This document shows, piece after piece, positions 6,502-44,386 of a stretch of DNA of 44,799 nt. Numbering within the stretch: the stretch's first letter is position 1; each line of letters starts with the position of its first letter. The notes under the pieces were generated by a model. The model was not told where the DNA came from. It did no database searches and saw nothing but the letters and a program-made list of their open reading frames with translations. Origin of the DNA: Phoronis australis (taxonomy: Eukaryota > Animalia > Phoronida). The stretch covers positions 1,659,911 to 1,704,709 of the forward strand of contig NMRA01000012.1 of NCBI GenBank assembly GCA_002633005.1. Direction: 5' to 3'. The translations under genes were made by a program, and so were the position numbers.

Positions 6502-6502
6502 N

Positions 6503-13534: not shown

Positions 13535-13722
13535 CTCAATCTTCTGACCTTGTGCTAAATCAAAGTCAACAAAAATTCCCCGTATTACACCGCCATCAGT
13601 GTTCTCCAGCTGGTAGCGGTATACAGTCTGGAACTGTGGTTCATACTTCTGATTGGGAAATCCTGGAGATCTACATGACAGACTGCTGTTGGCGTTGCCT
13701 TGTAACAGGCTGTCACCTCCCA
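13535..13722 (-). CDS. Coding exon 2 of the CUB-domain protein (N-terminal half of CUB)
   Basis: Acceptor tactttcag and donor GAG|gttagt. 188 nt, phase 1 to phase 0. (V)GGDSLLQGNANSSLSCRSPGFPNQKYEPQFQTVYRYQLENTDGGVIRGIFVDFDLAQGQKIE contains the CUB hallmarks SPGFP..Y and F.DFDL. Confidence 0.88.
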
Positions 13723-15229: not shown

Positions 15230-17720
15230 AAACACATATCGGGATGATCTCAACAAAAGCGGGAAAGTTGACAACCATCATTTTGGGTTTGGAGGAGGTA
15301 TAGTCTGCAGCGTGGCTTTGAATTTTGCTGACAGAAATGAATCGTGGATGCAATACAATAGGCCTTTCGAAACTGACATGCATTGCAAATGATGTGCTTT
15401 TAGAGGGTTTTGTTCGTATCATCAAAACGGCAACTAGATGGCGCAAAATACGTCGAAGTCATCTGAAAACCACAAAATGTCGTCGTTTCTTCTTAAAGAA
15501 AGCCATTTACCAAATTTCATTTAAAATTCGTCGAGGAATTTCAGAGAAACAAAAAGAAAATGAAAAAAATGAAATTGCCACTAGGGGTCACAGTGTTTGT
15601 CGGATCCGTCTAAAAGTCGTCGTCTTCTCTTGCTAACTTCATATACACAAGCTAAATTTAATAAAGATCCTGCAGAGGGCTTAGGAGATACAGGTATGGG
15701 TGCAAATAAACGCCACTAGGAGGCGCCACAGTACTTGAAGTCATCAGAAAATCATCGTCAACCGTCCCCTACATAGAAAAAACATACATGCCAACTTTCA
15801 CAATCATCCTTAGTGGTTTGGTTGACAGAGGGATGGACGGCAAAAACAGGCTAGAAAACAACAAAAATGGCCACTAGGTGGCGCAAACTAAGAATCCATC
15901 CCAAAACGGGAGGATAGCATCATCTCACTAATAAATGTCTATGTGCCAAATTTTATGGAAATCCGTTGAGGACCTTTGAAGATACGGAGGTAAACGTAAA
16001 AAACTAAAACTGCCACTAAGGGGCACACGGATACACGATTTTTTCGAAAGTCGTCGTCATTCACTGTCAACTTCATATCAATACATTTGCTAAATTTAAT
16101 AAAGATCCTGTAGAACGTTAAGGAGATACTTCCATGGGCACAAAAACAAACAGAACTGACACTAGGGGGCGTCACAGTACTCGAAATCATCGGAAAATCA
16201 TCGTCAACTGTCTTCCTCTTAGTAAGAACATACGTGCCGATTTTCAAAATTGCCAAAAAAAACGACTCGAAAACAGTAACAAGAGCAACGCGGAGTGTTG
16301 AAATGCGCCCATAAATGCATTGCAAATGGTGTGCTTTTAGGGTTATTTATTTGTATCATAAAAACGGCCACTAGATGGATCAAAAAAATACAATCCATCC
16401 AAAAACAGGAACATGCCATATTTCATAAAAATCTGTCAAGGAATTTCAGAGAAACAAAGGAAAACAGAATAAAATGAAATTTCCACTAGTGGGCACAGTG
16501 TCCGTTGGATCCGCCTGAAAGTCATCGTCGTCTGTTGTTATCTTCATATAAATAAACTTACTAAATTTAGTAAAGATCCTGCAGTGGGTTTAAGAGATAC
16601 AACTATGGGCGTAAAACAAAACTAGGAGGTGCCACAGTAATCAGTCACCATCATCAAAGGTCGTCTTCACACTGAGAACATATATGCCAATTTTCAAATG
16701 ATTTGGTTGATACAGGGGTAGACACCAAAAACAAGATTTGGTGCAAAATACCTCAATTCCATCCAAAAACAGAAAGATAGAGTCATCACAACAATAGATG
16801 CCTATATTTAAAATTTTATGAAAATCTGTCGAAGACAAAAAACAAAACTGACACTATGAAGCACCACAGAAGTTGAAATCGTTGGAAAATCATTATCAAC
16901 CGTCCTCTTCATAGTACGCACACACATGCCAATTTTCACAATCATCCTTTGAGCGGTTTGGTTGATAGATGGGTGGATGCAAAGAAACAGACACGAAAAC
17001 AGTAAAAATGGCCACTAGGCGGCGCAAACTATGTCGAATCCATCCGACAATGGGAGGATAGTGTCATCTCACTAATAGCTGCCTACATACCGAATTTCAT
17101 GAAAATCCGTACAGGACTTTTGAAGATACAAAGGTAAGCGTAAAAAACTAAAATTGCCACTAGGGGGCACACCGGCAGTCAGATCCGTCCGAAAGTTCGC
17201 TCATGCCGTCCCATTCATAAATGGAGCATATGCGCCAAATTTCATGAATGTATGTCAAAGAGTTTTGGAGATGGCGCAGCGGACGCTGCCCGGACGGACG
17301 GACGCCACCCGGACGGACGGACGCCGCCCAGACGGACGGACGGAGATGACGGCATAATGCATCCATATATAGATATGTGGGCACATAAAAATGGCCACTA
17401 GATGGCGCAAAATGCCTCGAATCCATCCGAAAACAAGATGATAGCGTCAATTATTATTAATAGATGCCAATGTGCCAAATTTCACAAAAATCGAATGAGG
17501 ACCTTTGAAGATACAGAGGCAATCGTAAAAAAATAAAATTGCCACTAGGGGGTACAGTGGTATTTGGGTCGGTCCAAAACTTGTCACTCTCTGTCGTCAA
17601 CCCCACTGGAACACACTTGCCAAATTTCAATAAGATCCTGCAAGGGGTTTAGTAGATACAGCCGCGGACGCTGAACGCTCAGACAGAGATGATGGCATAA
17701 TAATTGGTTTGTTACCCTCC
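15230..17720 (+). mobile_element. Helentron-associated (HINE/DINE-1-like) element(s) with an internal diverged core-repeat array
   Basis: More than 12 recurrences of GCCACTAG(G/A)(G/T)GGC(G/A)C with 'ccaaatttcatgaaaatcc' cores; GGAC microsatellite at 17280-17345; hairpin plus ATAAAAA at about 17358-17391. Boundaries are approximate. Confidence 0.65.
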
Positions 17721-18217: not shown

Positions 18218-20327
18218 GCTCACTGTCAGAGAACCGTGTACATTTCTGTCCCCAGCACCTAGAAGTGAGTACATGACTAAAAATGGCATTAAACTTGTGC
18301 TTTCTGTTAAAACAACTTTTGATTTTGATCACCATAAGCGACATACAAATGACCTCATCTTATTCCTTACTCAATTAGGAAGTGGCCTCTGAGCTCAGAA
18401 ATTTCTGCCTAATCTTGTTATAGTTTCAAACTAGGCTAAAAGAAAATCCAGGTCACGCAGAGAATGTTTCAGCTCAGAAATAGAAAGCTAGTAGGTGAAT
18501 TAGTTACTTGATATGTGACAACAAGTCAATACCACTATGGAAGTGAAATGTGCCTGGGAAGAAATTTTTTTCAAAACAGGAAATGTGGTTTACAATTGCT
18601 TTAAGTTGAAAGGAAGAAACTGAAACTGGAAATTATTGGAAATGACTATCTACTAGGAATAACCAGGTCTTTAAATATCAGTGAATACGAAATGGTGGAT
18701 ATCTTTTGCAAAGAAATCTCTGTTCATTAAAAGGACACTTAGAAATAATTTTTCTGTTGATGAATAACAGAACAAACATCCTAGACTCACAATACATAGC
18801 CAAAGACAAATATAAATATGCCTTAAGGGCTACGTTCACTAATGAAACTACAGTCACCTGCAAGCCCTTATGCAACTTCACCTAACAGATCGGCCCAAGT
18901 AGCGTCGCGAATTGGACCAGTCAAAATTAATGATTACATGTCTCAAGCACATTAAGTTTTAAATTAAATCACATCGAGTTCAACCTCCATGACCTTGGGA
19001 ATGAGCCAATCACTAACGCACTACAGTGGTCCTCCAGAGCTTTGTGCTGCTATATATCAATGATTTTGCTGATGAAAGAAGAGGCGTGATGGAAAGAAAT
19101 TATAAACCTTAATTACCAAAGCATGTGCGCAATTTGGAATGATTTAAATATATCAAAATCCCCCAATTGTGTGATCCTAGGCTCAAAACCAAACCTCAGT
19201 CCCAAACAGGGTTGGTAGTCTATACACTGACAGTACAGAATTAAGCGCCAGTATATATACTTATCACACTCGCATTTCATATCAATATTAACCCGTATAC
19301 ATCAAAATTATGGCATGTGAAGGAAATTATCTGAAAAATGATAACTAGACACAAATCAAGCCCTTCAAAAGAACATAATCACTTGAAGATTCAGCATTTT
19401 ACTCTTCTCTCGTCACTCCGTCATTTGCATTTTTCACAAATTGGTGAACTCGTGAACTAAGCCAAGAACCTGGTTCAATCAAGGGCTGGCACTAGGGTTA
19501 GCATGTATCACAACACATCATGAGATCAAAGTCTATGAGCATAAGATATAGAACAATTTTGTTAATTCATCTTTGTTACAAAGTGAAAAAAAGAAAAATG
19601 TAATATTCGGGAAGATGAGTCACCGATATAAAAGTGACTCGAGAACCAGTTACTTCCACTGAATAACAGGTATTACTCAGTGGGAGTAACTGGTTCTTGA
19701 ATCACCTTTAATGAGGGACACAACCCCCCATTAATAACCAAACTATAGTAGAGCCAGTAGTGGTAATAAGTGGTTCTTGAACCTTTGATCAGGGACCTTA
19801 AGTCCTTAAGACACCCAACTAGCTGTATGAAAACCATCCTGTAGCTTTTAACGACACTAATTCTGTCAGATTTGTCCATTTTTACCCACCTCGGCACAAA
19901 CCTGTATATTTAGTATACACCAAGTATATAACAACACACGGTGTACCTAAATATAACATTCATGATTCAATATCAGCCTCAGGGCCAGGCTCAGGGACCC
20001 ACCTAGGCTATGGCTATGCCACTAGACTATTACCCGAAGACAACTGCACAGATTTTCAGGTACTGTGATTGAATTGAACAGGTTTCGATTACTAATAACC
20101 ACGACAACAACAAACTGAATTACAATCTTGGTAAGCAATAATAGACTTAAAGTCATCTCTTTTACCAAGTTTTTCTGCATATCTGTCACTGAACTGAGAA
20201 CATCAACCAACAACAAGACGATTCGGTTTTTCTACACTAAAGAGTGCTGTTGGTCTGAGGCGCCCTCTATTGTCTCATAAAAGCGGCAAGGGGGAGCTTT
20301 GTTTTATCGATCTCGGCCTCTCTCGGC

Positions 20328-20418
20328 ACACAGGCGCCCTCAGTTGATCGTCCCCAATACACTACATATCATATGTAGTGTATATGGGGACGCGATCAGA
20401 AACTGAGGACGCCTGTGT
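20328..20418. repeat. About 90-nt imperfect palindrome (collapsed MITE-like hairpin)
   Basis: ACACAGGCGCCCTCAGTTGATCGTCCCCAATACACTACATAT-C-ATATGTAGTGTATATGGGGACGCGATCAGAAACTGAGGACGCCTGTGT. Confidence 0.8.
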
Positions 20419-20681
20419 CTCGGCATAGGCCTACCATGTGCACATACGGTGTTTTCTCTAATAGTTCGTACACTAGTGTACTAACTATTTTTCCCTTTAC
20501 ACCTTCGTGTACGCCTACCACTGCAATAGAGACAAAATTGGCTGTACGAACTATAAGAGAAGAAAGTCGAGTGTTCAAGTTATTACAGACAAAGATCGAT
20601 GCAATAACAACGAGTGCAACGCCGGGCCAGTCCGAGACGGTGGTTTGACAATGTGAATTAGGTCAGTGGAAACTGCGGCAC

Positions 20682-20901
20682 ACAAGAAACTGTAGGAACA
20701 CCGCATTTATCCATCTTCACTCTTATCAGGCTTCCGAATGAGTCAGCATGCGTGAATAATTGGCTGATAAGCCACCTCTGGAACTACTTTTGGCTGAATG
20801 GATGACCAGGCCATAAAATGATAATTAGCCAAGACCAGTTACTANATAGAAGCCTGATAAGAGTGAAGGTGGATAAATGCGGTGTTCCTACAGTTTCTTG
20901 T
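20682..20901. mobile_element. 53-bp inverted repeats flanking the gap N20845 (TIR element with unassembled interior, or an artefact)
   Basis: 20682-20734 is the reverse complement of 20849-20901 with one mismatch. No clear TSD. Confidence 0.65.
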
Positions 20902-22965: not shown

Positions 22966-25900
22966 CAGGTATACTCTCTCAGCAACGGTTAGCACTGTCG
23001 CTATTCTCGTTTGATGTGCGACTTTGGAGTTGCGTCCGCATGTACATGCTCCCACACTTGAATTGTTGGATGGCATGTTACATTGACAGCAACCCGGCGA
23101 CATCTGTGAATGACAGGTGACTCATAGATACGCACGTGCTCAGCCCCAGAAAGTATAGTTGGGCTGGAGAATTTGTTTGCCGTCTTGCCATAAAAAGAGA
23201 TGCATTTCCAAGTCACGGTCTGTGACATTGCGCGCAAACCGTAGCGGGATCCAGTGGCAGTGCCGCAGGTGAGATCATTTTCACGCAAGACGTCGCTCTA
23301 CGAAGTGTTGGCTTACGTAGTAAATGGCAGTGAGATGATATTGCGGTTGGGGATAATGTTATAGGCTAATCAGGGCAGCTTCCATGAAAAATAAATGTTT
23401 TTTCATCACAAATTCGGTAAGTTGGTCACTATTGAATGAAACATCGCTGTGACTTTTTTAATTTATCACATATTTATGCCGTGGTACGATTTTTTGCCGG
23501 CTCATCCAAAAGTTTGCAAAAGTAACCGAAAGCACCAGCCAATGAAACGCGTCAAAGATCGGTTCTGAATTATCCAAAGACGTTATCCCATGTTCACGCA
23601 ACACGTTTACAACTCAATGAAGAGGGTCGACTGTTCAGCTTGATTTGGAAACAACCAAATAACCGTCGGATTTGCACAAGTGCCGGGTATCTGCTTGCCG
23701 CCAAAAGCTAGCTTAGGCTCACGTTCTTGGGAATTTTCAGGTTGCATGTTGCGACTTGATACGAATTTGAAATGACCAGTCTTGGCGCCCACTCCATCAG
23801 GCATTTCCAAATTTCAGGTCGCGAATGTCTAGCGCCGAGTTGATTACAACGGACATCGAACTAGCGCGTACTCGCTGAGTGGGCTTTGCTGGCTAGAGCT
23901 AATCACTAACTTACCGCGGCTACCGATTACCCGAATAATTGGCGGTTTGTTTACTAGTTATTCTTACCGACAACGATACGTGTACGAACTATGATTGACG
24001 ACTGGCTCATGTCCGCTTACTTCCGATTCTCATCTTCATTACGTAGCGTGTTTCACGCAATGGCAACGGAAGTCAGCCATGCCGGGCGTTCGAGATAAGA
24101 CAGCCGCACTAAACCTTACGTTGACAATTTATTGAGTTGCGGAGTCTAGAACATAAACATTCCCAGCCATAAAAAACACCTGCATTAGTTTTTCAAATAT
24201 TTATTTCGTCAAACAACTCAACTTAGAACTTTACAACTAATACGCAGATAGTTCTACTCATGTCAGGGGCGCTGTAGCCATAAATTTAATCGTTATGATG
24301 TAACCTCTGCAACACATGAAGGTTGCACGCGCGCACTTCGCCACGTGAGAATAGTTGCAATCAAACTGGAGCACTATATAGTCTTTTGTCGTCTGCACAC
24401 TCTAGTCACCGGAATCGGCTTTAACAAGACTAGAGGACGGCACTGTACTATTACTCCGCACTTTTGTAAATTTATCCGTGTAGTACTAATCTGAGGGTAA
24501 CAGAACCTTGTTGGGAAAATCCGCTGTTATGATGACAATTTTACCGCCATTTGGCGACACACTGGAAAATCTTATCGCTATTTCCACATTTTGCCGCCAA
24601 AAATGGCTATCTGAAAAACGACTTTTCGAGCCCTATGCTAGCGTAGTAAAGCAAATAACGGATTCCGATCGCCTGAATAGATTTGGCGCTTATTGATCTG
24701 TGTTCTTTTATGAGAATGAAAATTTCCATTTTACCGATCCAAAAAGCTTGTACGAATTATTTTTTCTGACGTAACTATGTCTACGAACTATTTTTCCCTC
24801 GGACACCTTCTGTACGAACAATTGGAGACAAACGGCATGTTTCAAGGGTTCTGTACGAATTATAAGCGTGTACGAATTTGTATAGAAAACACCGTACCAC
24901 GTGTGTATACTCATACAGTTAGTGTATGAGAGATGTGCGCCAAAAATAAATGAAAGCAACAGATGACCTTACTGTCATTTGCCAGAGAGGGGACTGAAGA
25001 AATATGCCGAGTTCTTTGTGCATTCCGGCGTCTTTTTTGTTGAACAGAATGGAATAAAGTTTATTTTATATCGGGTACAGGGTTACAACAAACATCAGCC
25101 GAGGGCGCTAGTTTCCGATAAAAATACAAAAAATGAACTAAGATATGTACAAAGACTACGTAAGAGAGACATTTACAAAAATGACGTAGTGGTTACAAGA
25201 GTTACTCAACCTCTACCTAGAAATAAAGTTTTTAAGACATGACTTTACGAAATCACAATTGCACTCGCACAAATTCTCGAAATGCTTCCTGGGTAGTTTT
25301 CCATGAATGCTCAATGTCTCTTTCAGGGTATTTGGAAGGGCGTTCCATATTTTGAGTCCTTGGCATTTCAAGCTGTACTTTTTGTATGAAATGAGGAATT
25401 GAAAGAGAGTTTACCAGCGAAAACTGTACAAGTGAGGCTTTATCTGTAAAGAACATCCCCAAACTGCAAGGTCCAATTAAATTGATATGCTTAAGAAGCA
25501 ACAGACATAAATTACGCTGACGTATTGAGATTTGTGGTAAACAGTTTGCTCTGGCTAGGAGATTGGAATAGGAAGATACTGGGTCCATGAAAGCGTAGAG
25601 TGGACCTGCTGAATTTTCTCCACTTTCCTTTCTCATCTTTGGCCTACATAGATGACAGGCAAGTAAGCAATAGTTAAGATATGACTTGATGAAAGCATTG
25701 AAAATTTCAAGCTTACAACGTGCGCAGGGGAAATATGCGTTGACTTGTTTGGATGCCCGACCTCAGTACAAAGGGCCCGAGGCGTGTTCTTGAAGGCGTG
25801 AGTTTTTCGTCAATCAACACTCCAAGAGGTTTCACAGACAGTAATCATTTTAGTATCCATGCAAAAACCGTTCAGCTTTACATTAAACACATTTAGAAAA

Positions 25901-26124: not shown

Positions 26125-28807
26125 CAGCCCCGTAGCCAGGGGGGGGGGGGTTCGAGGGGTTCGAATGAACCCCCACCCTCCGTGGTAAAGGTCCAGCCCC
26201 AGCCTGTCCGTTAAGATAGGGTGCAGATGGACAACAGCAAAATTGTTGCTGCTACTAACAGTAAACTACAATGATAACTAAGGTAGTAATAACTTTGAAT
26301 TTGCTTCCGTTTCAAAGCGCTTCACGTAATCATCGGGCCGTGCCCGGCCAACTTTAAGTGGTATTTGCGTAGATGACAGGATCGTGCAGACGATTAGCGG
26401 AGGCTTTATTTTACTCATCGGCATTGAACATACGTGGTGGTTACACCGTAGGGTAAGAAGCGAGCCTAGAAGTTAAATGTCTATACCTAGCTAAGCTATA
26501 CAGTAGCGAGCTAGCTCCCAAAAAGTCTCAGTGCGGTGTGAATGTCTTAAAATCGACCAAGAAACAAAACAGCAGAAAACAGGGCCCGGTCTCTAATCTT
26601 TGTACTCGAAACGAACTCGAAACTATTTTTGGCAATTTCTCTGCTCCTTTTGTGCGAACTTAAGATAATTGGTTATCAGACTGTGCTCGAATACATTATA
26701 GTTTATGCATAGGAGTTTCTAGTTCAAGTTTGCCCTTGAAGACCCTTATATTCGTGCTACAAACTCGAGTAAAAACTCGAAATTTCGAGTTCAAACTCGA
26801 ACTTATTGCTTTAATATTGGGTTTACAAACTGTGAACTAAGGGCAATAAATTATCTACGTAAGTTATTGTGCACTCGAGCATAGAATAATGGACACTTAT
26901 CTTGAGTTCGCCCAAAAGTAGAGTAGAAAATGCCAAACCTAATTTCGAGTTCCATTTCGAGTAAAAAGATTGGAGACCGGGCCCAGGTTCGTTATCTGAT
27001 ATTGCTTGCTAACATAGTACGGTAGGGGGCAGGCGTTTTCAAATTTGAAATCGAAAGTGCTCGTCAAATACAGGTATGTTTTTCATCCAGTGTCCAATTC
27101 GATTGTGGATTGGTGGATTGACATGCATGCGTGTACATGTGTGTGCGTTCCGGAATAGTGGGCTGTTCCCATTTCCAGCGATGTAAGCAACTAGCTGCTT
27201 TTAACAAAAATACTTCATGTATCAGATGAAAAATTACGTCAAGCCATTCTCTGACTAAATATTTCCATTGGAGTATGTGATGAGGTGTAATCACTCAGTT
27301 AAAAAAGCCCGATTTGAAAGTTTGGCAGTTGGTAGGCCTAACGCCATGTGGAGAACTTCTCGCTTAAACTGGCCACCACTCAGATTTACTTAGCCTCAGA
27401 CAACTTTTATGATGCCGATTCAGCTTGCCCTTTGTATTGACGTAGATCTGAGCTAATGAAGTCGAAAGGTAATAGTTAGCACTACTGTCTCAAAAATGAT
27501 GGTTGTTATTACACCCAAATTGGTTTTCTTTGGCATTTGCACAAAGTTACAGCCAGCAACTGTAGAGAGCAGTTTTAACTTGGTACATTTTAAATATTAT
27601 AAAATGACTACAAAAGTTAATTTGTGTTTATCTTGACCATGGGCAACTTCCCAAAGGAACGATGGTTTTAAATATGTTTCATACCGCTTTTTGTTATTTC
27701 ATTTTAATACTCATGTTTTTTTTCTTATCAGGAACGGCTTGATATCTTTTTATTTTATTTTTAAACTTGAAGTACCAAAAACAGTAGTAGATTTGATCGC
27801 CAGCGAAACCTATTAGTTTAGCTTATTGTGAACCCATCCCTGAACTTTCCAGATTACAGCTACATGTACATTAAATATTTCACTGCGAACAAAACTACAC
27901 GTGTCATTAGTTCAAGTTTAATCTTTATTAGAATTCAAATCATAAAAGTTTTTACAAAAGTGCAAATGGTGATTGCCACACTGAAGATTTGGAATCTCTG
28001 GACGATTTCGGTTGCACTAACTACATAACTATTCAAGCTTTTTGTCATTCATAAAAATATACAGTGGACAGAAGTTAAATACAACTGTTTCCTAGTCAAA
28101 ATGTGGTTAAACGAGATTGAAAGAATATTAAAAGAATAATCCATGTGATATATTGTTAACTCTGATCAGCGTTTATAAATCCCCCAATTGCATCGATGCG
28201 CTTGGTCGTTTATCTTCAATCGTATCGTATTGTAGTTTTTAGCTTTTAAGTACATCAATGTTTGAAAATCCAAAACATTACTTGGTTGTTTTTCCAGCTG
28301 AATACCGCCGTGGTATTCGTTTTTAACAAAAAATACTTATTAATGCATTTTGAAAATTCCCCATTATGTACAGGCAGTGATGATTACGACAGTTTATGGT
28401 CGGGCATTAAAGGTCTTGCTCACGCAGGACCATGCGGTCAACACGACCGTATCCGACACAGGCGCCGCACTCTCTTTGGTCCTGGTGAAAGCCGCTGAGA
28501 AGGAAGGGCCGGGTGATTGTAAGCGGTATGGCGAGAACGTTAGTCTATATTTATGAATCACATTACGTCCGAATTTTTTTGCTGCTGTTATCGAGCAACC
28601 GTCACAACATCCTCATTTGTGGTATAGCAAATTCCGTCTTGTCTCAGGAACATAGAGCTGAGAGCCATCGTTGCCGTGGATACAGATTTCCCTTCATAAT
28701 TAACCTGCGTCAAGCGCCTTACCAAGAGCTCGAGTGTTGACGTTTGCAAAAGGTCCACCTTTCTAGAAATTCGAACCGCTCCCAGCCTAATGCTGGCTAC
28801 GGGCCTG
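26125..28807 (+). mobile_element. 2.7-kb hAT5-like DNA transposon with 5-bp TSD GTATC
   Basis: TIRs CAGCCCCGTAGCCAG / CTGGCTACGGGCCTG (14/15), with GTATC at 26120-24 and 28808-12. The empty site is visible in the duplicate at about 25850. A frameshifted hAT dimerisation-like remnant (PNFF..ATVTTSS..NSVL..LRAI) lies at about 28565-28670. Confidence 0.88.
26583..26983. mobile_element. PIF/Harbinger-type MITE nested in the hAT5-like element
   Basis: TIRs GGCCCGGTCTCTAATCTTT / AAAGATTGGAGACCGGGCC, 3-bp TSD CAG, near-foldback interior with ACTCGAAA motifs. Confidence 0.88.
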
Positions 28808-31459
28808 GTATCCATGCAAAAACCGTTCAGCTTTACATTAAACATTTTTAGAAAAAATGATGCCCTGAAATTTGTCAGAGATTTGCTGCCATGGGGCGTG
28901 GACCATTTGATAGCCTCTAACGCAGAGTTGTTTAGAAAAGCACTTAGATACAGTTTCGTTAAAATATGTGCTGAGTTGGTCATAAATTAACTTTTCAAAA
29001 AATTGATTTATGGAGGAGTGGATGCTAATTGGCTTGACGCACATGGGATCATGGGGCAGATTTCATTACTTTTCTTCAGAGCCGTGGAGGGTAGCTGGAT
29101 TAACAATAGCCTTGTTGTAGATAGGAATCAGTGTTACAGACAGTTCTCTAGCAACAGTTTTCGGAAACATGTGAGGAATTCTATCAGAGCCTGTCTCTTT
29201 ACTGGTATTTGTTGACTTCAATTTCTTAAAGACCTCACTTTCATCGAGCTTACTGAAACCAATGCTGAAACAGAACGCTGTCTGTCTATCGACTGCTTGC
29301 AACACGACTAGGGTAATACTTAACCTCGGCGTGGTAAGACCGTCAGCTTCACGAGCAGAGAATAAGACGATTCACTCGGGATTCGGGAAAATCTGTGAGC
29401 CCAAGTATGAATAAGAGCACCTTTTTAAGTGGGTATATAACAAAGACTGTATACTTGTAATATCTTTGCATAAAAGACGATATAGCTGCATTTTTAGAAA
29501 CTATGACCCCACACTACGTGTCCATGGTTAGGACGACACACACTACCGGTATTCAGCCCGGCCAACCCTCGATCGAGAACGCCCGGAAGGCGATCGAGAA
29601 CGAAATTTGGCGCGAGAAGCGAAGCCAGGCAAGGTGAGTAAATTTGACGAATTTTGGTTGTTTTTACTACCAATGTGAAAACAGAGACACGAGTTCATGG
29701 CGTAACACATTGAAGAAGGGCTAGTGTCTCTTCCAATTATATGAGAAAAGTTACGTTGACCGAGGCATCGCATGAGCCGAAGGTGATTTGTAGGTCATTT
29801 TGGCAAATTACCATTACTTTTGACACTAAATCATTAAATTGACCATGGGTTTATGAAGAAATGACGTGTGAAAATATAACTCAGCGCTTGTTATTTTTTT
29901 GTAGTTTTGTCAGGATAGCTGATTTTTCGACGCTTTTCTGTTGAAAGATGTGATCGAGAAAGCAACTATAAGCGATCGGGAATGCATCGTGGTGTGTCGA
30001 ACAGCAATGAACTTTTTACTTATAAAACGTGCAAAAGGTCACAAAATAAGTGTGGTGCAATGAATTAATCACATTTTGCGTCATTACTGTGTTACTTTCA
30101 TATCAAAACTGAACAACAGCATAGCATATTTCTATTAAATTGCCATGAGCGCTACATGTACGTCAAGCATAATTTTAGTTTCACAAACGAATTTATATTC
30201 ATTTCAGGAAACAAGTTCACTGTTGAGGCGAGTAGTTTAGATGAAACCACTGAGAACAAGGGGATCTAAACTGAAGACTCATCCAGGAGTCACCCGTGTC
30301 AGCCAGGGGTAAACAAATTGTTGCAGCAGAAGAAAACGAGTGTAGAACCTTCTTGTAAAATTGTGACAGCAAAAGGAAAAAAACAAATAGCCAGTGAAGT
30401 CAAAGAATGATGATGAGCTTGCCCATGGGGGGAGAGAGAGTGCGGCAACACTTAACGAGATGGTTCAAAGATTCCCAGTCACAAACGTCTGGAATCTAAA
30501 ACTTGGGCGGAAGTTGTGTAAACTGGTGTGCTGATAAAACGGGTGGGATTTTTGTTGTAGTGTCACTGTGTTTTACTGCCATGTTGTCATAGTAAGTCGA
30601 TTTCTTAGTTCCTGAACAAGGCTATATATAACATACACAGACTCCTTTGTGATATGCAGCAGTTGTACTTTTTTGAAGGCGTGGACGTTAACACTCGTCG
30701 TGTGGCTACACTTCAACTGAAAAATTCAAACGCAATCAGTTATGTTTGTTACGCTGAATCTCACTTAAAAATCATGAAATAACGATGAAATGTAATTAAT
30801 AGCCAACCCATCAACTCATTCAAGCTCCGTATTATTCTAAAATTATTAAAATAATACCGTAACTTGAACTACTTATTCAGGAAAATGCAGAGAAAAAAAT
30901 GTGCGTACACGATCGCTTTTTTGCGTTCACGATCGCCATAGAGAATTAACGACTTCGTTTCCGATCGCCGTCTAACACAAGGACCTGCTTGTATTGGTAA
31001 ATATCTCAAATTGTTTCACAAATCATAACTAAGAAAGGTGTTACCAAGGACCATTAAACTATAAACGTCGACACGTCTCTTCTTAAGAATTCTGCAATTG
31101 CTAATAACCATGAAGAAGAAATTGTCGATTTTACGAGGCGCAAGGCATTTTACCGAGAGCCATTGCTCTCTGAGCTCTTTATTTTAAAAAAATAACCAAA
31201 AGCCAAGTCGCAGATCCACAACAAAGGTTACACTCTGACGCTTTTCTGTGTGTTAGCATTCGTACCAAAGTGGCCTCTATTTAAGCAGACAATGAAGGAG
31301 AATGCCACCCAATTTATTAAGTCTTTTTTACAGTCTTAATCGGTCTATTTCCACATTGCTTCTTATACGGTCGACCTCACCTTGCCGAGAGGTGTTGCGT
31401 TAACCTGTGAGGAAGATGAGAAACGATGCAGCGACGTCAGTGGTTCGTCTGAAGAGTGA

Positions 31460-34584: not shown

Positions 34585-35298
34585 CAGAAATTCCAGAGGT
34601 CTACTCCTGGTGGTTTCTATATGTTCTTGCTGGTAGCGGATATAGATTACTATCGCGGTAAGGAAATTTATGAGACTGGTTTTTTAAGAGTAAAGGGCTT
34701 AAATCGATTTTCGTTTTATCTATCTAAACAGGGTTTTAATTATCTCTGTAATTTTAAACACCCGGAGACTTTTCAGAAAAGCTGATTTTTTTACCTCTGA
34801 GCATTTCCGTGATGAAATCGTTAAGCAACCTTTTTTGAGTCACATGTTTTATTTCAAGCACTAAAAACACGACACCTAATAGTTAGGAGAATAATATATA
34901 ACTCCAATATTGAGGATAACTTCAAAGACACGCTAGGAAAAGGAAACTGGTGCTAATGGTTTTCCATTGTTTGTGCTGCCACAGAGTGGGCCAAAGGCAC
35001 GGAGATCATAATGTGCGAAACAGACTTTGAACAAAGCGTTGGTACTGTTACGGAATTGTGTTCAACTTATTAAACGTAGAATTATACGGTACATGAATTT
35101 CTTATGAATAGTCGATTTTGTTTCACGTCTAAGACCAACTACCAAAGGTAAAATCTCGTCAATTTCGCCGATGCGGGCAAGACTGCCCTTCTCATTTTCA
35201 GAAGCCTCTAACGCTTTTGCCAATGTCCACATTTTTTCACAACATTGTACATTTTTTTAATAATGTACGCAAAAAATAAATCTCAGACCTGCTGCTGT

Positions 35299-35453
35299 TT
35301 GAAACATACAGTTGTGATGCAGTCCTTTCGGCTGTAGGCCAATGTTATTGAAACGTACGGTTGTGATGCAGTGATTTCGGCTGTAGGCCAATGTGATTGA
35401 AACGTACACAGCTGTGATGCAGTCATTTCGGCTGTAGGCCAATGTTATTGAAA
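35299..35453. repeat. About 49-51-bp tandem repeat, 3 units
   Basis: TTGAAACGTAC..TGTGATGCAGT.ATTTCGGCTGTAGGCCAATGT(T/G)A occurs three times. Confidence 0.9.
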
Positions 35454-35876
35454 AGAGCGATAGTGGCAGACTGTCGTAAACGGATACGGTAATTCTCCAT
35501 TTGTTTCGCACAAAAAGGTATTCAAGTTTTCCATTTCCCTCCGGGCTCTTTGTAACTGCAACAACGACGTCTTGTGATGTCGGCGTTTTGTAATGTATTT
35601 CGTTGACATGAACTTCTTGTGTCTTTTTCTCATGTAGATTTTCGCTGTCGATCATTACTCAGTGACACTACGTTGTCATACAATGAAAATATTGCTTACA
35701 ACCGATTTGAAAGTTTTGCAAAGTACTGCTACTGGGCAGACATTTCATTTCACCGTTCACATGCAAACGTCACCTGATGGCTGATTGAACCAGGTGTTCG
35801 ACAGCAATGTTGTTTGAAATATAGCCATGTATCGGTTTCATCGGAAAAGAAATTCGAACTCCACTATTTGAAGATA

Positions 35877-36004
35877 TTAATCCAGTTCTTTTGTTTCCTG
35901 CCCAAGTTTTCTCAGAACGGTTTGAAATATCTTGGAAAATATTTTCGAACTTTTGTGGTTCTCCATTCTACGTAGCAGTCTCAATGAATCTTGCAATTCT
36001 TGTC
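35877..36004 (-). CDS. Final coding exon of the candidate neuropeptide precursor (C-terminal associated peptide)
   Basis: Pyrimidine-rich acceptor ...tttcctttacaaaacattccag. In phase 1 it reads (G)QELQDSLRLLRRMENHKSSKIFSKIFQTVLRKLGQETKELD*. The other two frames stop within about 12 codons. Confidence 0.6.
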
Positions 36005-37458
36005 CTGGAATGTTTTGTAAAGGAAATATAATAAAATACAAACTGACACTTCAACGATTCTAACGCACAGTTAAAATATAACCGAAAAGAAATTACATCA
36101 ATTTTTAACGATCGATTGAATTCATGCTCACGTATATACATCAAATCAACATGAGAAGTTTCATTAACTTTTTTGAATCAGTGAATCGTCAACATCAACG
36201 ATTTTTACTGCCAATAGATGTATCCAGCAAAGTACATGTAATCAAGTCACTAATTCCAGGTGACAAGTATCACGCAGTCAACCCAGGGCCTATGTATATA
36301 ACTTGAAAATAATTCAAATTGTAAACACTTAGTGAATTTGAAAGTATGGGAAGTACTGATGATTTTTTATTCTAGTAGACTCATTTTTTCCCTTTAGGGT
36401 CATTCACTCCACGCTTAAAGAACCTCCGTCTTTATCGGAATAACAAGAAATTGGGGGTGACTTGGTACATTAAAACTTTTAAGTTATCAAAAAAGCGGAG
36501 CTCTAGTTGAGGCTTAGAGTTGATTATCTGTTATAAGGCTTTCGTAATTGTAATTATCCTGTAGTAATACACGGATGATGGGTGTACGGATGATGGATCT
36601 TGCGGTAATTAAAAGACACCACGGAACCAAACCTGGTCATTGTACATTTATATTTATCCCGTAAATTCGGTCACTTTCATTTTAAAATGACAAGGAAACC
36701 GTAAAAATGAATAGACGATTTTAAAAAGCTGTTCAGTGCAGCTTGAATGTTTCCCCCGTATTAGCACGCCCACTTTATCAACTTAAGAATAGAATGCGAC
36801 GTGTCCTGACTTCACCATTTCAACTTTACTTCTCTTGAGTTTGTCATAAGAGTTTTGCACTAGACTCGGATTTACGTACTGAAAGGATTTGATCGCGTTT
36901 AGACTACTTTCTCGAGCCTTTTTCATAACGAACTTTTAGTGTACAACTCTCTTCGCACCAATCTTACTTTCACCTTACCATATGCCAGCCACAGTCACCA
37001 GGTATGAAAAATGTTCAGCCGTCAATGTTCGATTTACGCATAACGTAGAAACGAATGTAGAAACGGTACCCCATTTGTCATCTCAAAATTTCTTTCGAAG
37101 GTCGCTTTAGGGAACAGCGACGGTGGTAGTGAAAATAACAAATGTAAATTTAAAGTTGGCCGACCGGAGATTCTGGACACTGGAAGTTGCCAAAAATGAT
37201 AACTGTACAGTGGCGGATCTAGGATACCATGAGGGTGGGCCCGACGTCCTCGGGGAATTGGGCAAAGCTCGATAGTATGTGCAAGTAGGCGGAAGGTGCG
37301 GGGGCCGTGAATGTATAAATGTATACCTTCTGTTCGGGAAATCTATAGCTGGACTAAAAAAAAAACAAAAACAAAAGAAAAAAAAACAAAAAAAACGGGA
37401 ATGTGTTTTTTCTTTCCTCGTCCGCTCCCTATCTTAGCTCCTACTCAGNGGGCGGTGG

Positions 37459-37666
37459 GCCAATACATATCTGGCAATACATATCTGCCAATGCATGTCT
37501 ACCAGTGCACGTCTGCCCAGTGCACGTCTGCCAGTGCACGTCTGCCAGTTCACGTCTGCCGGTGCACGCCTGCCAGTGCACGCCTGCCAGTGCACGCGTG
37601 CCACTGCACGTCTTCCAGTGCACGTCTGCCAGTGCACGTCTGCCAATGCATATTTGCCAATACATA
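37459..37666. repeat. 14-bp minisatellite (GCCAGTGCACGTCT), about 15 units, intronic
   Basis: Directly visible. It produces the repetitive ORFs at 37311-37765. Confidence 0.95.
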
Positions 37667-37711
37667 ATACCTAGATTGTAGTACTGTTTTAAGGATTCGT
37701 GCAGCCCTTAC

Positions 37712-37877
37712 CAGTAACATCCTCGTGTTGATTGCTAACGCCGTTTCTCTTCCCATACCTAACAAAATTCCAATACTGTTTCATAAAGTCATTATCCAGG
37801 CTGGCGGGGATGAAAGTACAAGCGCATGTGCTGATGACAAAGAACAAAATTACTGTTCGCGAAAGCAGAAGTCTCAT
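37712..37877 (-). CDS. First coding exon of a candidate RYamide-type neuropeptide precursor
   Basis: Acceptor ttcttctccag (exon starts 37915), AAAATG start context, donor CTG|gtaagg. MRLLLSRTVILFFVISTCACTFIPASLDNDFMKQYWNFVRY-GKR-NGVSNQHEDVT reads as signal peptide, peptide, Gly amide donor and dibasic cleavage site. Confidence 0.8.
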
Positions 37878-39007
37878 TTTTCGTGCCGAGGAAGGTCCAA
37901 ACCAAATGTGGTCTACTGGAGAAGAACCAAAGATTGTTTTTTTAAATCAACCCTTATTTTTGTACCAAATGAAATCCTTGATTGAATTTGATGGCGTGCA
38001 GACGTAGATGTCTCGAGAGACGGAGATGATGATAATTAGCGCTCCACAATTGTTGGCGTTTGACAGATCGCATTAATAACTTTGATTAATTCGACGACGA
38101 CGCAGTTTTAGAGCGAGGACGGACTAATTTCATTATTCAGTTTTAGGTCGACACAAGATCAAACATAACAGGGGGATCAAGAATTTTTAAAGGGGGTTGG
38201 ATCAAGGATTTTTTAAAAAGAGTGTCTGGGTCAACAATTTGAAAATTATAGATTTGATATCACTAAAATCAACGGAAAAAGGGGAGGTCCGGACCACTTG
38301 AAACTCTGGATCCGCCTATTCGTACACCAGTACGTACTGAAGGGCGTCATTCGGATTCCTCAGAATATGACGGGTCGAGCAGAGCGTCATTGTCGCAAGC
38401 GTTACGCGTATGACAGAAAAAGGCATCTAATGATTCTTCTGAACGAGTTCCATCTCAGCTAGTCCCCGATTTAAGGTTGCCGGGCAGGGGTCCTGCCCCC
38501 CCCCCTTGGCCGCAAAAAAAGAAGTAAAACGACACAGAAATAAATGTGTGCATTTACTCTGTTGCGGCTAATCGCGAGCAAGTACTTTAATGTGTGTGCG
38601 TGTGTTGGACACAGCCAGTACAAAATGAAAATTATCTCCTCACGATATCCTAGATCTGCCACTGGGTCCCTCACCGTTTATCTAGGCATGTTTTTCAGTG
38701 ATGAAATTTTGTTCCTGGCCTTTATTTTGGAGCAATATCTCTCCAAGCCTGTTGCTTACGTTGACTTGATTTGGCACCAATTTTCTTGTTCTCTATGACA
38801 TTGACTTTTTCTCTCATCAGTTATGGGAGGGAGCATTTTTCTTCGTGAGAATAGCTTTTAGCCTTTTTCGCAGATGTCTGCACTGATTCTACTGTAGTGT
38901 GCCATTGTGTACCCACGTGATCAAGATTTCATTGAAGCACTTCAATAGTTTCTTTGTTGGGTTAATGCGGACCAACACAGTGGGGTGGCTTGAATCCTTT
39001 AAACCTG

Positions 39008-39443
39008 CCTCCCGTTCAGCAACGCTAGGACCTCGCTAAAAAGCAAGACTTCACGAGATTACGTGAGATATTGCCGTGTATTTCAAATGAGAACACGTGA
39101 CTTTGACTAAATTTTAGCTAGGTCCTAGCGCACTAGGTCCTAGCGTCTACTGAACGCACGCCAGGTTTTACTAAACCCGCTTTATGGTCTAACAAAACCA
39201 GACTTGCAGACTTTTAAACCACGTTGGTGAAATGCAAGTTAGGTCTAAAATTAGACCAGGTTTAGGAAGAGCAGGTTTAAGTCTTAAACCTGGCGTGCGT
39301 TCAGTAGACGCTAGGACCTACGCTACTTCCTAGCTAAAATCTAGTCAAGGTCACGTGTTCTCATTTAAAATACACGGCAATATCTCACGCAGTCTCGCGA
39401 AGTCTTGCTTTTTAGCGAGGTCCTAGCGTTACTGAATGGGAGG
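39008..39443. mobile_element. Two inverted copies of a ~150-bp Harbinger-type MITE (39008-39161, 39293-39443) within an AAACCWGGTTT-rich host repeat
   Basis: The arms are reverse complements, and each copy has its own short TIRs and CWG flanks (CTG/CAG; CTG/CTG). Confidence 0.8.
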
Positions 39444-40482
39444 CTGGTTTTGTTAAACCACCTTTATGAAATCGGCTGTCTATGTCTGGGGACGTAATAG
39501 CAGTCCTGCGTATAGCGCTGTGCGAGGGTGTTCACGCGCCTCGTAACTAATCAGACACTTGTGGTTAGGAATGATGCATCCTCAAAATTCAAAAAGGCTC
39601 CAAGAGGCCGATGGCAGACGCAAAGTCGGTCATGGGGTGCTCCATCGAAACAGGAACCCCGGTGTAATACAGATATCCCGGAGTCGAAAACAGACTTCTG
39701 CACCATCAAAACAGTTAACCAACCCCAAAACACGACCCCTGATGTTTAAAACAGGAAACCCCGGGATCGGACAGGAAGCCGGACAATTTTTCAATTTTTT
39801 CGAGACCGTAGTCTGTAGCCTCAAACTTTGAGTTAAAGCATCTTCAAGAACTTTTCAGTTGTTTTCTGCATTTGTTTGTTAGAAATTTTCAATAATAAAA
39901 CGTAACTTATATTATATTGACTTTGTTGTTTGACTTTTATCGGTAAAACTTGTGTAACTTGTTTGTTTGCGATTTTCAACACAATTCATACTCTCACACG
40001 TTGTTATCTCGGTGAATATTTAGTTAATTTCAGATTATTTATAGTTTGTAAATCTGTGAGGGGTACTCAGTTTCGCAATTACAGATAAACAAAATACATA
40101 AAAACATTTCTGATATTTTAAGTAATCATTTCAATTTCAAAAACCATAATCTACAAGCTTTCTGTACAAATAATAGAACAACTCCAGTACCCCTCACACA
40201 CTCACAAGAGAACAATTTTGGATAGATAAGCTTAAAACACTTGAACCCAATCTATTAAACATAAAGACTTCTTAAATTATATTATATGTTGTTTTCAACT
40301 GAGGAATATCAATGGATACGTAGAAAACTGCGAATTGTATTATGTTATCAACTCCATGGAATAATATCTGAGAGGTGTTAATTGTCGATTTAGTTGGGCA
40401 AAGATAGATACTGTTGACCAGGAAAAATGCTGGGGAAAATTTCATTCAAACAAGCTTTCCAAATTTGATAATTTTGTGGTAA

Positions 40483-42009: not shown

Positions 42010-42350
42010 TTTACTGACAGACAGGAAATAACCGATTAACTCAACAATTATGTAGAGAAAAACATATAGTTTCTGAAATACCTATATGCAATAGCCATTT
42101 TGAAAATTGAAAACTGTTGGTGATGACGATGTGTTAAAAATAATGAAAAATCTTCAATCAAAATCCATTACATGCAGTGATGGCATAACATTTTCATTTA
42201 TCAAAAAAATCATTTTGCGCAAACCAATTTCCTTGATTAAAAGTCAGTATTTTCTCAGAAGTACTTTCCAAGATGATTTAAAAGTTGCGAAGATAATTCT
42301 TATTTATAATGAAAATGTTTATGATCAAATAAATATAGTTATTTTTCTCA
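42010..42350 (+). mobile_element. CR1/L2-clade LINE ORF2 fragment (region preceding the RT core)
   Basis: FTDRQEITD*LNNY ... VGDDDVLKIMKNLQSKSITCSDGITFSFIKK..KPISLI....FQDDLKVAKIILIY resembles 'V.KII..LK.K.S.G.DGI...FPD.LK.AKVIPIYK'. Confidence 0.75.
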
Positions 42351-44386
42351 TGATAAACTTTTGTGGAAATTTCAGTATGCCTTCACACATAATCACTCTG
42401 CTGAAGTGGCTGCCACCGAACTTGTCCATTTTCTCTATAGTGATTTATGACACTTTCACTGAAACTCCGTCACAACTCCCTTTACTCTAACTTTCCAAAT
42501 AGTGGCATCGGAGTTTCCGCTAGTTCGAGGGATTAAATTCCAGGTGGCGTAGTTGATTTGCACTCTGTGCCATGCTCGTTCGATACAAAATTTGTCTATT
42601 TCCGTGTGACGTTATCGCTTACATTACTACATATAGTAACTTACATATGTTCATTATAATGTGGTACGGATAACGACGAATTGTATCGAATGAGAGGTCT
42701 TCTGGTTTGCAATGTCACGACCTCTGGCGATTAATCACATCGGAGTGCTGTTAACCCTTCCGCAAATTCCACAGTTTTGTCCACGTATTTTGACAGGAGT
42801 TGCGTTGACTGTTTAAGTCCTGAAGTTATGCTTTCCATTGGCCAAAAATCCACAAAACAATGGAATTGAAAAGTCAATGGAATGGGACATTAGACAAACG
42901 CTTGAACCATATTTATGGATTTTTTAATGCCTCTGACACCATCGTTATAAGAAATCTTCCTTTCATTTCGTTCTAAGTATTGCTGTTCATGTTGTAATTT
43001 TTCCTTTTTTCTGTTATCAAACCACAACCTTTTTGAGCACAATTTTGTACCTGGGCCGGAACCACTGAGAAAGTCGTTGACTATTTCTGTGTCTTGAGTT
43101 CCTTTTTCACGAACAATTTTTGAATGCCTGTCTTGTCGTCCTTGAAAACGTATTGATAACACCAAAGCGAAAAACCGTTGCTGTTTTATTTGGTTGTTTT
43201 TGATGCCCATTTTGGTTATTGTTATACAAATGTTATCTTACATTGTCCAAATATTTCGCGATTTGTTTGGACACAGACGAGTAATCTTTTTTCATTTTTG
43301 AGAAACCTCATAGCTGTGTCAGTTATGCATTTTTTCAGGTGTCCGAAACATCTGTATAAACAAGGGCTTTGATTGGCTTAGGCCAGTGATAAGGCCAAAA
43401 TCAGCCATTGGCACTGTGGTCTTAAGTCCAAAGTTTCATAAGAAAAAAATAAAAATAAAACTATTAATGACGTTGGAATTTTCAATTTTTCTAATATTTT
43501 TATCATCAGTAAATACATTTCATAATTTGCATCCACAGGTAAATTAAAAAATGCCAGAAATTTTCGACTTCTCAGTTAACGTGTTTGCTACATGCCTACA
43601 GCTTATAGTGTATGGCACCAAATTGAAAAGTCTTTCCGTTTTCTTGAAGGAGATAGGAAGACTTGAAAACTTTCTTTACGAAGAGAACCTGTTGATCCAT
43701 AACGGAGCTCTCAAGTTTTTATCTCAGGTGTTTGGTGCAATGCGCCCAACCATGAGGCCTGCGCACATCTGATGCACCCCAAATAACATCAGACCACCTC
43801 CACTTTTTAACAGGGCTGAAGCCTTCATCAGTGTTAGGTCTTGCCGCTAGTTGTCGCTAAGCGTGATACAGGGTTAGAGGGGGCAATTAGCAAAGATGAT
43901 TTTTCTGTTAATCTTCGAAGTTTTGGTATAGTCGTTAATAAACACCGAGTCTGTATTTAAACGCCGTCACATCTGTATTTTATAAAAGTTCAGGCTTCAG
44001 TTAATACATCGGGAGGGCAAATTTTGCGGTATTTGTAATAATAATACGCAGACTTTTTCACGCTCGAGCTGCCGTCACATGAGTAAGGGAAAACACAAGT
44101 CTCAATTTTCAAGGGCTAATCAACCTCGTCGGCTGTAATGTAGGGCTTACCCCTTGAGCCCCCGTCGTCTTCAGGATTATATTAAATTTAACTTGTTAAA
44201 TGCATTTATCGTCATTATTTTGACACTTGTCTCTTTATTTTGAGACCAGTCCTTAGGGTTTATTTTGCCGCATTACTCATCTCTATTTATAGCCTCTAGG
44301 GCCTACTTTTGTATTCATACGTTTCTCTACGCGACTCCTGATTGGTCGCCCATATTTCCTTTGTTCTGTTCAACGTGGTCTCTCAC

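What the first reader, a model, noticed from the sequence alone, without database searches (positions are those of the whole stretch)
35877..37915. Unassigned amidated neuropeptide precursor (…MKQYWNFVRY-NH2)
Seen: two phase-compatible exons with canonical splice sites give a 97-aa protein, MRLLLSRTVILFFVISTCACTFIPASLDNDFMKQYWNFVRYGKRNGVSNQHEDVTGQELQDSLRLLRRMENHKSSKIFSKIFQTVLRKLGQETKELD. Established: signal peptide, single peptide, G-KR and an associated C-peptide is the layout of NPY/NPF, GnRH/AKH and luqin/RYamide precursors, and G-KR signals cleavage and amidation. Inference: the mature peptide is about 20 aa ending FVRYamide, or pQYWNFVRYamide if cut at the single Lys. It resembles the NPY helix (LRHYINLITRQRY vs MKQYWNFV---RY) and kisspeptin-10 (YNWNSFGLRY). 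However, it lacks the NPY RxRY motif and the intron in that Arg codon, and lacks luqin's C-terminal cysteine pair. It may be a divergent or new ligand.
Basis: partly seen in the sequence, partly recalled or inferred. Interest (0 to 1): 0.85.

Follow-up and report, generated by a model that had tools for sequence, protein, structure and literature searches.

The report
Orphan RYamide peptide with variable core
A spliced, expressed invertebrate gene (likely a horseshoe worm's) encodes a precursor predicted to be secreted and cut to a roughly 20-residue amidated signalling peptide that fits no known family I tested, and a few RNA reads from a second version differ most inside the peptide itself, so it is likely a fast-evolving signal rather than a conserved neurotransmitter.

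Summary
RNA run X3 covers both exons on the expected strand and not the intron, and 4 reads join 37712 to 36004 exactly. The 97-aa ORF has a signal-peptide-like start, one peptide ending FVRY-GKR and a helical C-terminal part. No relative was found by protein, profile, metagenome or literature searches, and the scan had not seen it on other DNA. It fails defining tests for NPY/NPF, PrRP, kisspeptin, luqin, GnRH and pleurin; the nearest profile is FMRFamide-related, just below cut-off. New here: 3 of 9 reads carry a second version with only non-synonymous changes, and it departs completely from codon 31, inside the predicted peptide. That is the reverse of a conserved neuropeptide and resembles effector families such as myticalins, whose exon layout it shares but not their charge. 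Best reading: a lineage-restricted, fast-evolving RYamide GPCR ligand (0.42). Main rival: an ordinary endogenous neuropeptide, possibly for the phoronid luqin receptor, which has no known precursor (0.33). Host phylum, processing and target are untested. Interest 0.42.

The parts
37878..37915 (-). 5' UTR part of the first coding exon; acceptor-like site just upstream suggests a further non-coding exon (not located)
   Evidence: pyrimidine tract + AG ending at 37916, no upstream ATG in 37878-37915; depth in bin 37865-37979 fits an exon starting at 37915 (inference)
37818..37877 (-). predicted signal peptide, codons 1-20 (cleavage after C20 or T21)
   Evidence: basic start, hydropathy peak 2.8 in 9-residue windows; cleavage site from the (-3,-1) rule, inferred
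37755..37817 (-). predicted mature peptide, residues 21/22-41, ending FVRY-amide; balanced charge, predicted amphipathic helix over residues 31-40
   Evidence: Pfam FARP E 0.068, 14.1 bits against a cut-off of 15.5
37772..37787 (-). variable core, codons 31-36: second version reads DLEMW here
   Evidence: loose end at 37788 in 3 reads, agreement 1; 9 of 16 letters differ against 6 of 90 in codons 1-30
37746..37754 (-). Gly-Lys-Arg amidation and convertase signal, codons 42-44
   Evidence: sequence; processing inferred from established convertase/CPE/PAM chemistry
37712..37745 (-). first 11 residues of the C-terminal propeptide and first base of codon 56
36005..37711 (-). phase-1 GT-AG intron, 1707 nt; holds a 14-bp tandem array (37484-37650), an N (37449) and a dispersed repeat
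   Evidence: joint in 4 reads
35877..36004 (-). second coding exon: two predicted amphipathic helices (residues 58-71 and 76-96), dibasic sites at 67-68 and 87-88, stop codon
34848..35876 (-). 3' UTR of about 1 kb ending near AATAAA at 34848-34853
   Evidence: stranded depth 3-10 down to bin 34875-34989, zero below

Best explanation
This spliced, expressed gene encodes a 97-residue precursor that is predicted to be secreted and cut to a 20-21-residue amidated peptide ending FVRY, which likely acts on RFamide/RYamide-type G-protein-coupled receptors and likely belongs to a small, lineage-restricted, fast-evolving family. Steps: (1) transcription and splicing of two coding exons, shown; (2) entry into the secretory pathway and loss of residues 1-20/21, predicted; (3) convertase cut after K43-R44, carboxypeptidase trimming and PAM amidation of Y41, inferred from the GKR motif; (4) the C-terminal helices act as a sorting or chaperoning propeptide, inferred; (5) the amidated aromatic-x-Arg-aromatic end engages an RFamide/RYamide-type receptor while the helix before it sets specificity, inferred; (6) because that helix is the part that differs between versions, and expression is uneven between samples, the target is more likely a moving one (another individual, as in mating or defence) than a fixed housekeeping receptor, inferred from thin data.
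For: Junction and stranded coverage. The RY-GKR end scores just under the Pfam FARP cut-off. 8 of the 10 listed Atlas rows are neuropeptide or hormone precursors of different families, best score 0.87, which is weak. Second version in X3: 3 of 9 reads differ at five positions in 37807-37829, 4 of 6 at 37874 and 4 of 5 at 37887; all 6 coding changes are non-synonymous. From codon 31 on, 9 of 16 letters differ and all five complete codons change (Fisher p about 1e-5 against codons 1-30). No substitution is listed over 35417-35868 of the 3' UTR at depth 5-9. X1 and X2 hold only about 2 and 3.5 exonic reads, none at 99%+, with at least 5 other differences per read, against about 60 reads in X3. 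Signal peptide, peptide, dibasic site and first propeptide residues on one exon followed by a phase-1 intron is also the myticalin layout (passages). Not in two spiralian neuropeptide catalogues.
Against: The variable core rests on 3 reads from about 2 start places, possibly 1-2 molecules. Its 7 of 16 ungapped identity is not above chance (p 0.11), so an insertion, recombinant or library chimera is possible. Six of six non-synonymous changes has p 0.17 under neutrality and five lie in the signal peptide. Whether the second version keeps the RY-GKR end is unknown. Allele and paralogue cannot be told apart, since no genome is held. Expression in X3 is low (about 4 RPKM), unlike many gland products. 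The tissues of X1-X3 are unknown. The one described phoronid predator deterrent is thought to be volatile or air-reactive, which does not point to a peptide (passages). No receptor or binding test was possible.
Confidence: 0.42

Rival explanations
1. An ordinary, previously missed endogenous neuropeptide or hormone: released from neurons or endocrine cells onto the animal's own RFamide/RYamide-type GPCR. The best candidate is the luqin/RYamide receptor, which phoronids have although no phoronid luqin precursor was found.
For: Single peptide behind the signal peptide, GKR, and helical associated peptide as in phoronid NdWFamide, corazonin and QSGamide precursors (by eye). Low expression. Atlas neighbours are neuropeptide precursors. 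Luqin receptor present and luqin precursor not found in four phoronid transcriptomes. One X2 read appears to cover codons 41-56, including the GKR site (inferred from bin depth).
Against: The second version differs inside the peptide. No luqin motif or Cys pair. Absent from the catalogue of four phoronid species. Nearly silent in 2 of 3 runs of one study.
Confidence: 0.33
2. A myticalin-like mucosal antimicrobial precursor: the variable amidated core, or the cationic amphipathic helix at residues 76-91 released at the Arg-Arg site, kills microbes by disturbing membranes.
For: Same exon layout and phase-1 intron as myticalins, with a conserved signal region and a variable core. Residues 76-91 carry net +4 and a hydrophobic moment near 2.1, and are predicted helical.
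Against: The core has balanced charge, pI 5.6 and 4.8% Arg, against pI >11 and >10% Arg in myticalins; the second version is more acidic still. The C-terminal part is not anionic (net +1). Amphipathic helices are common in neuropeptide propeptides (by eye).
Confidence: 0.13
3. A strongly diverged pleurin: the missing phoronid member of a single-copy spiralian neuropeptide family, with seven residues inserted before the amidated end.
For: Residues 21-33 line up without gaps with brachiopod, nemertean and scallop pleurins directly behind the signal peptide (5 of 14 positions strictly, 8 of 14 by residue class; by eye). One phase-1 intron as in pleurin genes. Pleurin not found in phoronids.
Against: The invariant PRI-amide end is absent. 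Pleurin introns lie 37-66 residues after the cleavage site, behind the propeptide helix (3 of 4 genes seen); here it lies 11 residues after, before the helices. A rough count gives 0.14-0.8 such matches expected by chance. The second version breaks two of the matching positions.
Confidence: 0.06
4. A divergent NPY/NPF, PrRP or kisspeptin orthologue, and so a possible ligand for the orphan lophotrochozoan kisspeptin receptors.
For: RY-amide end and a predicted helix. PrRP and NPF clusters are among the Atlas neighbours at 0.86 and 0.84. Lophotrochozoan kisspeptin receptor ligands are unknown (passage).
Against: Intron position fits none of the three. No RxR[FY] motif. No family profile hit. A normal NPF precursor is already listed for phoronids. 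Kisspeptin and NPY/F receptors were not recovered from phoronids.
Confidence: 0.04

Closest known systems
FMRFamide-related peptides (Pfam FARP PF01581), including phoronid FMRFamide/FVRIamide and sNPF-type xFRYamides (PMC8557429 supplement, passages)
   Same: Aromatic-x-Arg-aromatic amidated end followed by GKR; profile match E 0.068 over the last 8 residues; phoronid precursors carry FVRI- and FRY-ending peptides.
   Different: Single copy directly behind the signal peptide, 20-21 residues with a predicted helix; those precursors are multi-copy with short peptides; score below the curated cut-off.
Luqin / RYamide precursors of brachiopods and nemerteans (PMC8557429 supplement, passages)
   Same: About 100 aa; one RF/RY-amidated peptide right after the signal peptide, then GKR and a C-terminal part.
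   Different: No WRPQGRF-type motif; no C-terminal Cys pair (Cys only at 18 and 20).
Myticalins and modiocalins of mussels (PMC5577615, passages)
   Same: Signal peptide, core, dibasic site and first propeptide residues on one exon, then a phase-1 intron; amidation signal; conserved signal region with a variable core (here on 3 reads).
   Different: Core neutral, not cationic; propeptide not anionic; no sequence likeness found; myticalins are restricted to Mytiloida.
Pleurin, single-copy form of brachiopods, nemerteans and scallop (PMC8557429, section read and supplement passages)
   Same: One peptide behind the signal peptide, one phase-1 intron, partial residue-class match over 13 positions.
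   Different: No PRI-amide; seven extra residues; intron before and not after the propeptide helix.
Cone-snail doppelganger toxins (PMC13542836, passages only)
   Same: Concept only: neuropeptide-like amidated peptides under fast evolution and aimed at another animal.
   Different: No venom system known for the likely host (own knowledge); no parent neuropeptide identified; exocrine expression untested.

Membership tests
NPY/NPF | Intron between nucleotides 2 and 3 of the Arg codon of the RF/RY end | tested here: not met
   Feature from PMC7314547 passages; here the intron is phase 1, 11 residues after GKR
NPY/NPF | C-terminal RxR[FY]amide and NPY-family profile match | tested here: not met
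   Motif from PMC5996578 passage; end is FVRY; no NPY-family hit at E<=10, no PDB chain match
PrRP-type | Phase-1 intron inside the peptide-coding sequence | tested here: not met
   intron here follows the peptide
Kisspeptin | Phase-1 intron between the signal-peptide exon and the peptide exon | tested here: not met
   PMC9400282 passages; signal peptide and peptide share one exon here
Kisspeptin | Activation of a kisspeptin-type receptor | not testable with these tools
   Receptor not recovered from phoronid or brachiopod transcriptomes
Luqin/RYamide | Single RF/RY/RW-amide directly after the signal peptide | tested here: met
   Layout matches, but the peptide is about twice as long and lacks the spiralian motif
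Luqin/RYamide | C-terminal Cys pair in the propeptide | tested here: not met
   Present in 11 of the 12 luqin entries seen (one ends without Cys); none here
Luqin/RYamide | Activation of the luqin receptor | not testable with these tools
   Receptor listed as present in phoronids
FMRFamide-related (FARP) | Pfam PF01581 score at or above 15.5 bits | tested here: inconclusive
   14.1 bits, E 0.068, on the 24-residue fragment; no hit with longer queries
FMRFamide-related (FARP) | Multi-copy precursor | tested here: not met
   One amidation site against many copies in phoronid FMRFamide and sNPF precursors
GnRH/corazonin/AKH | Pyroglutamyl peptide starting directly after the signal peptide | tested here: not met
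   Phoronid GnRH and corazonin start with Gln right after the signal peptide; here Q34 lies 12-13 residues on, behind a lone Lys
Pleurin | C-terminal [DE][YF]PRI-amide | tested here: not met
Pleurin | Single phase-1 intron at a conserved place behind the propeptide helix | tested here: not met
   Phase agrees, place does not: 37-66 residues after the cleavage site in 3 genes seen against 11 here
Myticalin | Exon holding signal peptide, core, dibasic site and first propeptide residues, then a phase-1 intron | tested here: met
Myticalin | Core with pI >11 and >10% Arg; anionic C-terminal extension | tested here: not met
   pI 5.6, 4.8% Arg; extension net +1, pI 8.4
Myticalin | Hypervariable core between conserved flanks in a multigene family | tested here: inconclusive
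   3 reads from about 2 starts; no paralogue in the window; no genome held
Wx3Yamide | W-x-x-x-Y-amide | tested here: not met
   Scallop peptides end W-x-I-A-Y-amide; here four residues lie between W and Y
Amidated prepropeptide (general kind) | Amidated product detected by mass spectrometry | not testable with these tools
   Masses computed

The most novel reading that the evidence does not exclude
A hypervariable family of neuropeptide-mimicking RYamide peptides in a filter-feeding lophophorate: conserved signal region and propeptide around a core under diversifying selection, secreted outward to act on RFamide/RYamide-type receptors of mates, competitors or predators. It would be a doppelganger-type signal without a venom apparatus, and the first such peptide family in this phylum that I could find.
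Probability: 0.25. Interest if true: 0.7.

Novelty: new variant of a known kind. Interest (0 to 1): 0.42.

Why it matters
Single-copy peptide precursors without relatives are easily missed by similarity searches, and this one is absent from the two catalogues I searched that cover the likely host phylum. If it is an endogenous signal, it is a ready candidate for receptors that lack a known ligand there, above all the luqin/RYamide receptor, and one synthetic 20-mer can test that. If the variable core is real, it would be an RYamide under diversifying selection, which points to a role between individuals that I found undescribed for these animals.

Tried and rejected
Homologue searches, all blank or spurious: word-indexed search with the exon-1 frame, 34-109 aa and with exon 2, longer proteins (5 candidates, none scored); phmmer over 1.84 billion representatives (2 hits, both long repetitive proteins matching by composition, seen, rejected); metagenome scans with exon 1 and exon 2 (599 and 595 pattern matches, 0 confirmed); PDB sequences (0); Atlas with exon 2 (no usable hit). 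Each exon was searched alone, never the spliced protein, which lowers sensitivity; these collections may lack the host's genes, so blanks do not prove novelty. No RNA holder was listed by the index; run X4 gave no coverage of the exons. No paralogue in the window. Neighbour genes for synteny: 0 of 106 ORFs hit Pfam at E<=0.01 (106 of the 184 listed, and 10 others with no hit at cut-off), and the LRR-like ORF found no relative, so synteny could not be tested and the host phylum could not be fixed from window genes. Peptide-gated FaNaC channels as target: two phoronid channels did not respond to FMRFamide or FVRIamide (passages), so not favoured. A 132-codon ORF in the 3' UTR was rejected as the product: it lies downstream, spans a 49-bp tandem array and has no Pfam hit. 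The loose-end letters match nowhere else in the window with fewer than 3 mismatches, and no GT donor follows 37788, so alternative splicing from this locus was rejected as their source. Fold searches were not run: two short helices would match anything. Literature: WNFVRY in 0 papers; FVRY/VRYamide terms in 2 papers, a cnidarian survey and a nematode GPCR paper, seen as listing only; 0 matches for six motifs in the PMC8557429 supplement and no relevant match in 6 supplement files of PMC6425005, one of them cut when stored. Subscription journals, figures and bioRxiv supplements were not searchable and could hold this precursor.
Full report
1. Observation. On the minus strand an ATG at 37877 opens a frame to a GT donor after 37712, and an AG acceptor before 36004 continues it to TAA at 35877-35879: 294 nt, 97 aa. 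Raw reads of run X3 (about 19% of the run) cover both exons and about 1 kb of 3' UTR, all with the first mate on the + strand. They leave the intron empty apart from one repeat, and 4 reads from 4 starts join 36004 to 37712 across a 1707-nt GT-AG intron. Coverage ends near an AATAAA at 34853. The N at 37449 hides no exon in this isoform. The ORF is the first in the modelled transcript, with no upstream ATG in the exon. A post hoc rule for a signal-peptide-like start plus R[FY]G[KR]R fired in 0 of 150 simulated windows.

2. Anatomy. Residues 1-20 are basic then hydrophobic; cleavage after C20 or T21 is inferred. Residues 21/22-41 end in FVRY and are followed by GKR. Their charge is balanced (pI 5.6), and a single-sequence model puts a helix over residues 25-47 with pLDDT 84 for residues 31-40 (mean 68.7). 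The propeptide has two predicted amphipathic helices, 58-71 and 76-96 (mean pLDDT 81.9), and dibasic sites at 67-68 and 87-88. The only cysteines are in the signal region. The intron is phase 1 and lies 11 residues after GKR.

3. Host. No genome is held and no window gene gave a lineage. An earlier, unreviewed note on this genome calls it likely a horseshoe worm's; another says mollusc. My own test is weak: a repeat-derived frame ending near 15939 shares 12 of 17 residues with the repeat-like tail of a Phoronis australis transcript isoform in the PMC8557429 supplement (compared by eye). I treat phoronid as likely, not shown; every argument from phoronid receptor lists depends on it.

4. A second version. 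In X3, 3 of 9 reads (about 2 starts) differ at 37807, 37823, 37825, 37828 and 37829; 4 of 6 differ at 37874 and 4 of 5 at 37887. All six coding changes are non-synonymous: R2G, T17L, C18Y, A19T, P24H. Three reads have an agreeing loose end from 37788, in frame, reading DLEMW where the window's codons 31-35 begin: 9 of 16 letters differ, against 6 of 90 in codons 1-30 (Fisher p about 1e-5). The 3' UTR shows 12 variant sites in 34-80% of reads, in two clusters, one inside a tandem array, and no substitution over 35417-35868. X1 and X2 hold only about 2 and 3.5 exonic reads, none at 99%+, sharing T93A. Against over-reading this: it may be 1-2 molecules; 7 of 16 identity is not above chance (p 0.11), so an insertion or chimera is possible; six non-synonymous changes of six has p 0.17 under neutrality (0.0025 at dN/dS 0.2); codons 37-41 of that version were not seen; allele and paralogue cannot be separated.

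5. Relatives. None was found in protein, representative, metagenome, PDB or scan look-ups. Exons were searched singly and these collections may lack the host. The Atlas places the exon-1 frame among neuropeptide and hormone precursors of many families (8 of 10 listed rows, best 0.87, recognition below the level of known families), which speaks for the layout and for no family. Pfam gives only FARP, 14.1 bits against 15.5, on the 24-residue fragment.

6. Known families. NPY/NPF needs an intron in the Arg codon and PrRP a phase-1 intron inside the peptide (PMC7314547, passages). Kisspeptin genes split the signal peptide from the peptide (PMC9400282, passages). Spiralian luqins have a fixed motif and a C-terminal Cys pair (PMC8557429 supplement). 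None is met. In PMC8557429 (parts 1-4 of 11 of the main section read) kisspeptin and NPY/F receptors were not recovered from phoronids, the luqin receptor was, and luqin and pleurin precursors were not. The 49 P. australis entries shown from its precursor list include nothing similar by eye, and six motifs had no match in the whole supplement, nor a relevant one in PMC6425005's supplements. Pleurin gave a lead: residues 21-33 align in register by residue class. But the PRI-amide end is missing, the intron lies elsewhere, and the match is within chance. Myticalins share the exon layout and the pattern of conserved flanks around a variable core, but not the charge (PMC5577615, passages). Wx3Yamides differ in spacing (PMC5996578, passages; PMC4200219, passages).

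7. Mechanism. Shown: transcription and splicing. Predicted: secretion and helices. Inferred from established chemistry: convertase cut, trimming and amidation giving a 20-21-mer. Inferred: the amidated RY end binds an RFamide/RYamide-type GPCR; peptide-gated channels are less likely because two phoronid channels tested did not respond to FMRFamide or FVRIamide (PMC9234716, passages). The open point is whose receptor. A conserved neuropeptide should be the most constant part of its precursor; the one comparison available shows the reverse, and expression differs about 20- to 40-fold between three runs of one study whose tissues I do not know. I therefore put a fast-evolving, outward-directed signal first (0.42) and an ordinary endogenous neuropeptide close behind (0.33). 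An antimicrobial role (0.13), pleurin (0.06) and NPY/PrRP/kisspeptin (0.04) follow. The known phoronid predator deterrent is thought to be volatile or reactive (PMC13232333, passages), which gives no support to an anti-predator role.

8. Verdict. A real, expressed precursor that I could not find described in the searches named, of a well-known general kind, belonging to no family tested. New variant of a known kind; interest 0.42. If the hypervariable, outward-directed reading holds (probability about 0.25) it would deserve about 0.7.

Noticed in passing
window 6062-6609 (+): ORF with a signal-peptide-like start and leucine-rich-repeat-like segments (Pfam LRR_8 E 0.14), running into an N at 6502 and a 23-bp tandem array; possibly a Toll-like or other LRR receptor exon broken by an assembly join. 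No relative found.
   Followed up: partly
window 11427-13265: Two 89% identical copies of about 900-960 bp in tandem on either side of the single N at 12387; likely two haplotypes placed side by side at a scaffold join.
   Followed up: no
window 39001-39450: 450-bp palindromic element (81% self reverse-complement) with very high RNA depth on both strands in X1-X3 from many related copies; MITE-like. Further palindromes or inverted pairs at 20315-20431, 20682-20901, 26582-26984 and 31576-31848/32239-32499.
   Followed up: no
window 15378-17661: Cluster of 66-81% alike dispersed repeats in tandem; one frame resembles the repeat-like tail of a published Phoronis australis transcript isoform.
   Followed up: partly
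window 35257-35655 (-): 132-codon ATG ORF inside the 3' UTR of the peptide gene, spanning a 49-bp tandem array (35299-35453); no Pfam hit; judged non-coding.
   Followed up: partly
window 35699: 8 of 8 X3 reads carry an extra T here: an assembly error or a fixed difference.
   Followed up: no
window 13403-13816 (-): 137-aa stop-to-stop frame that reads like a coding exon of an extracellular protein; no Pfam hit.
   Followed up: partly
window 25253-25762, 28588-29371 (-) and 42104-42490 (+): Frames that look by eye like decayed non-LTR retrotransposon reverse-transcriptase fragments; no Pfam hit at cut-off; label is from recall.
   Followed up: no
window 36140-36369: A few X1 reads of the opposite orientation lie inside the intron (depth 0.6-1.3); antisense transcription or a repeat.
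   Followed up: no
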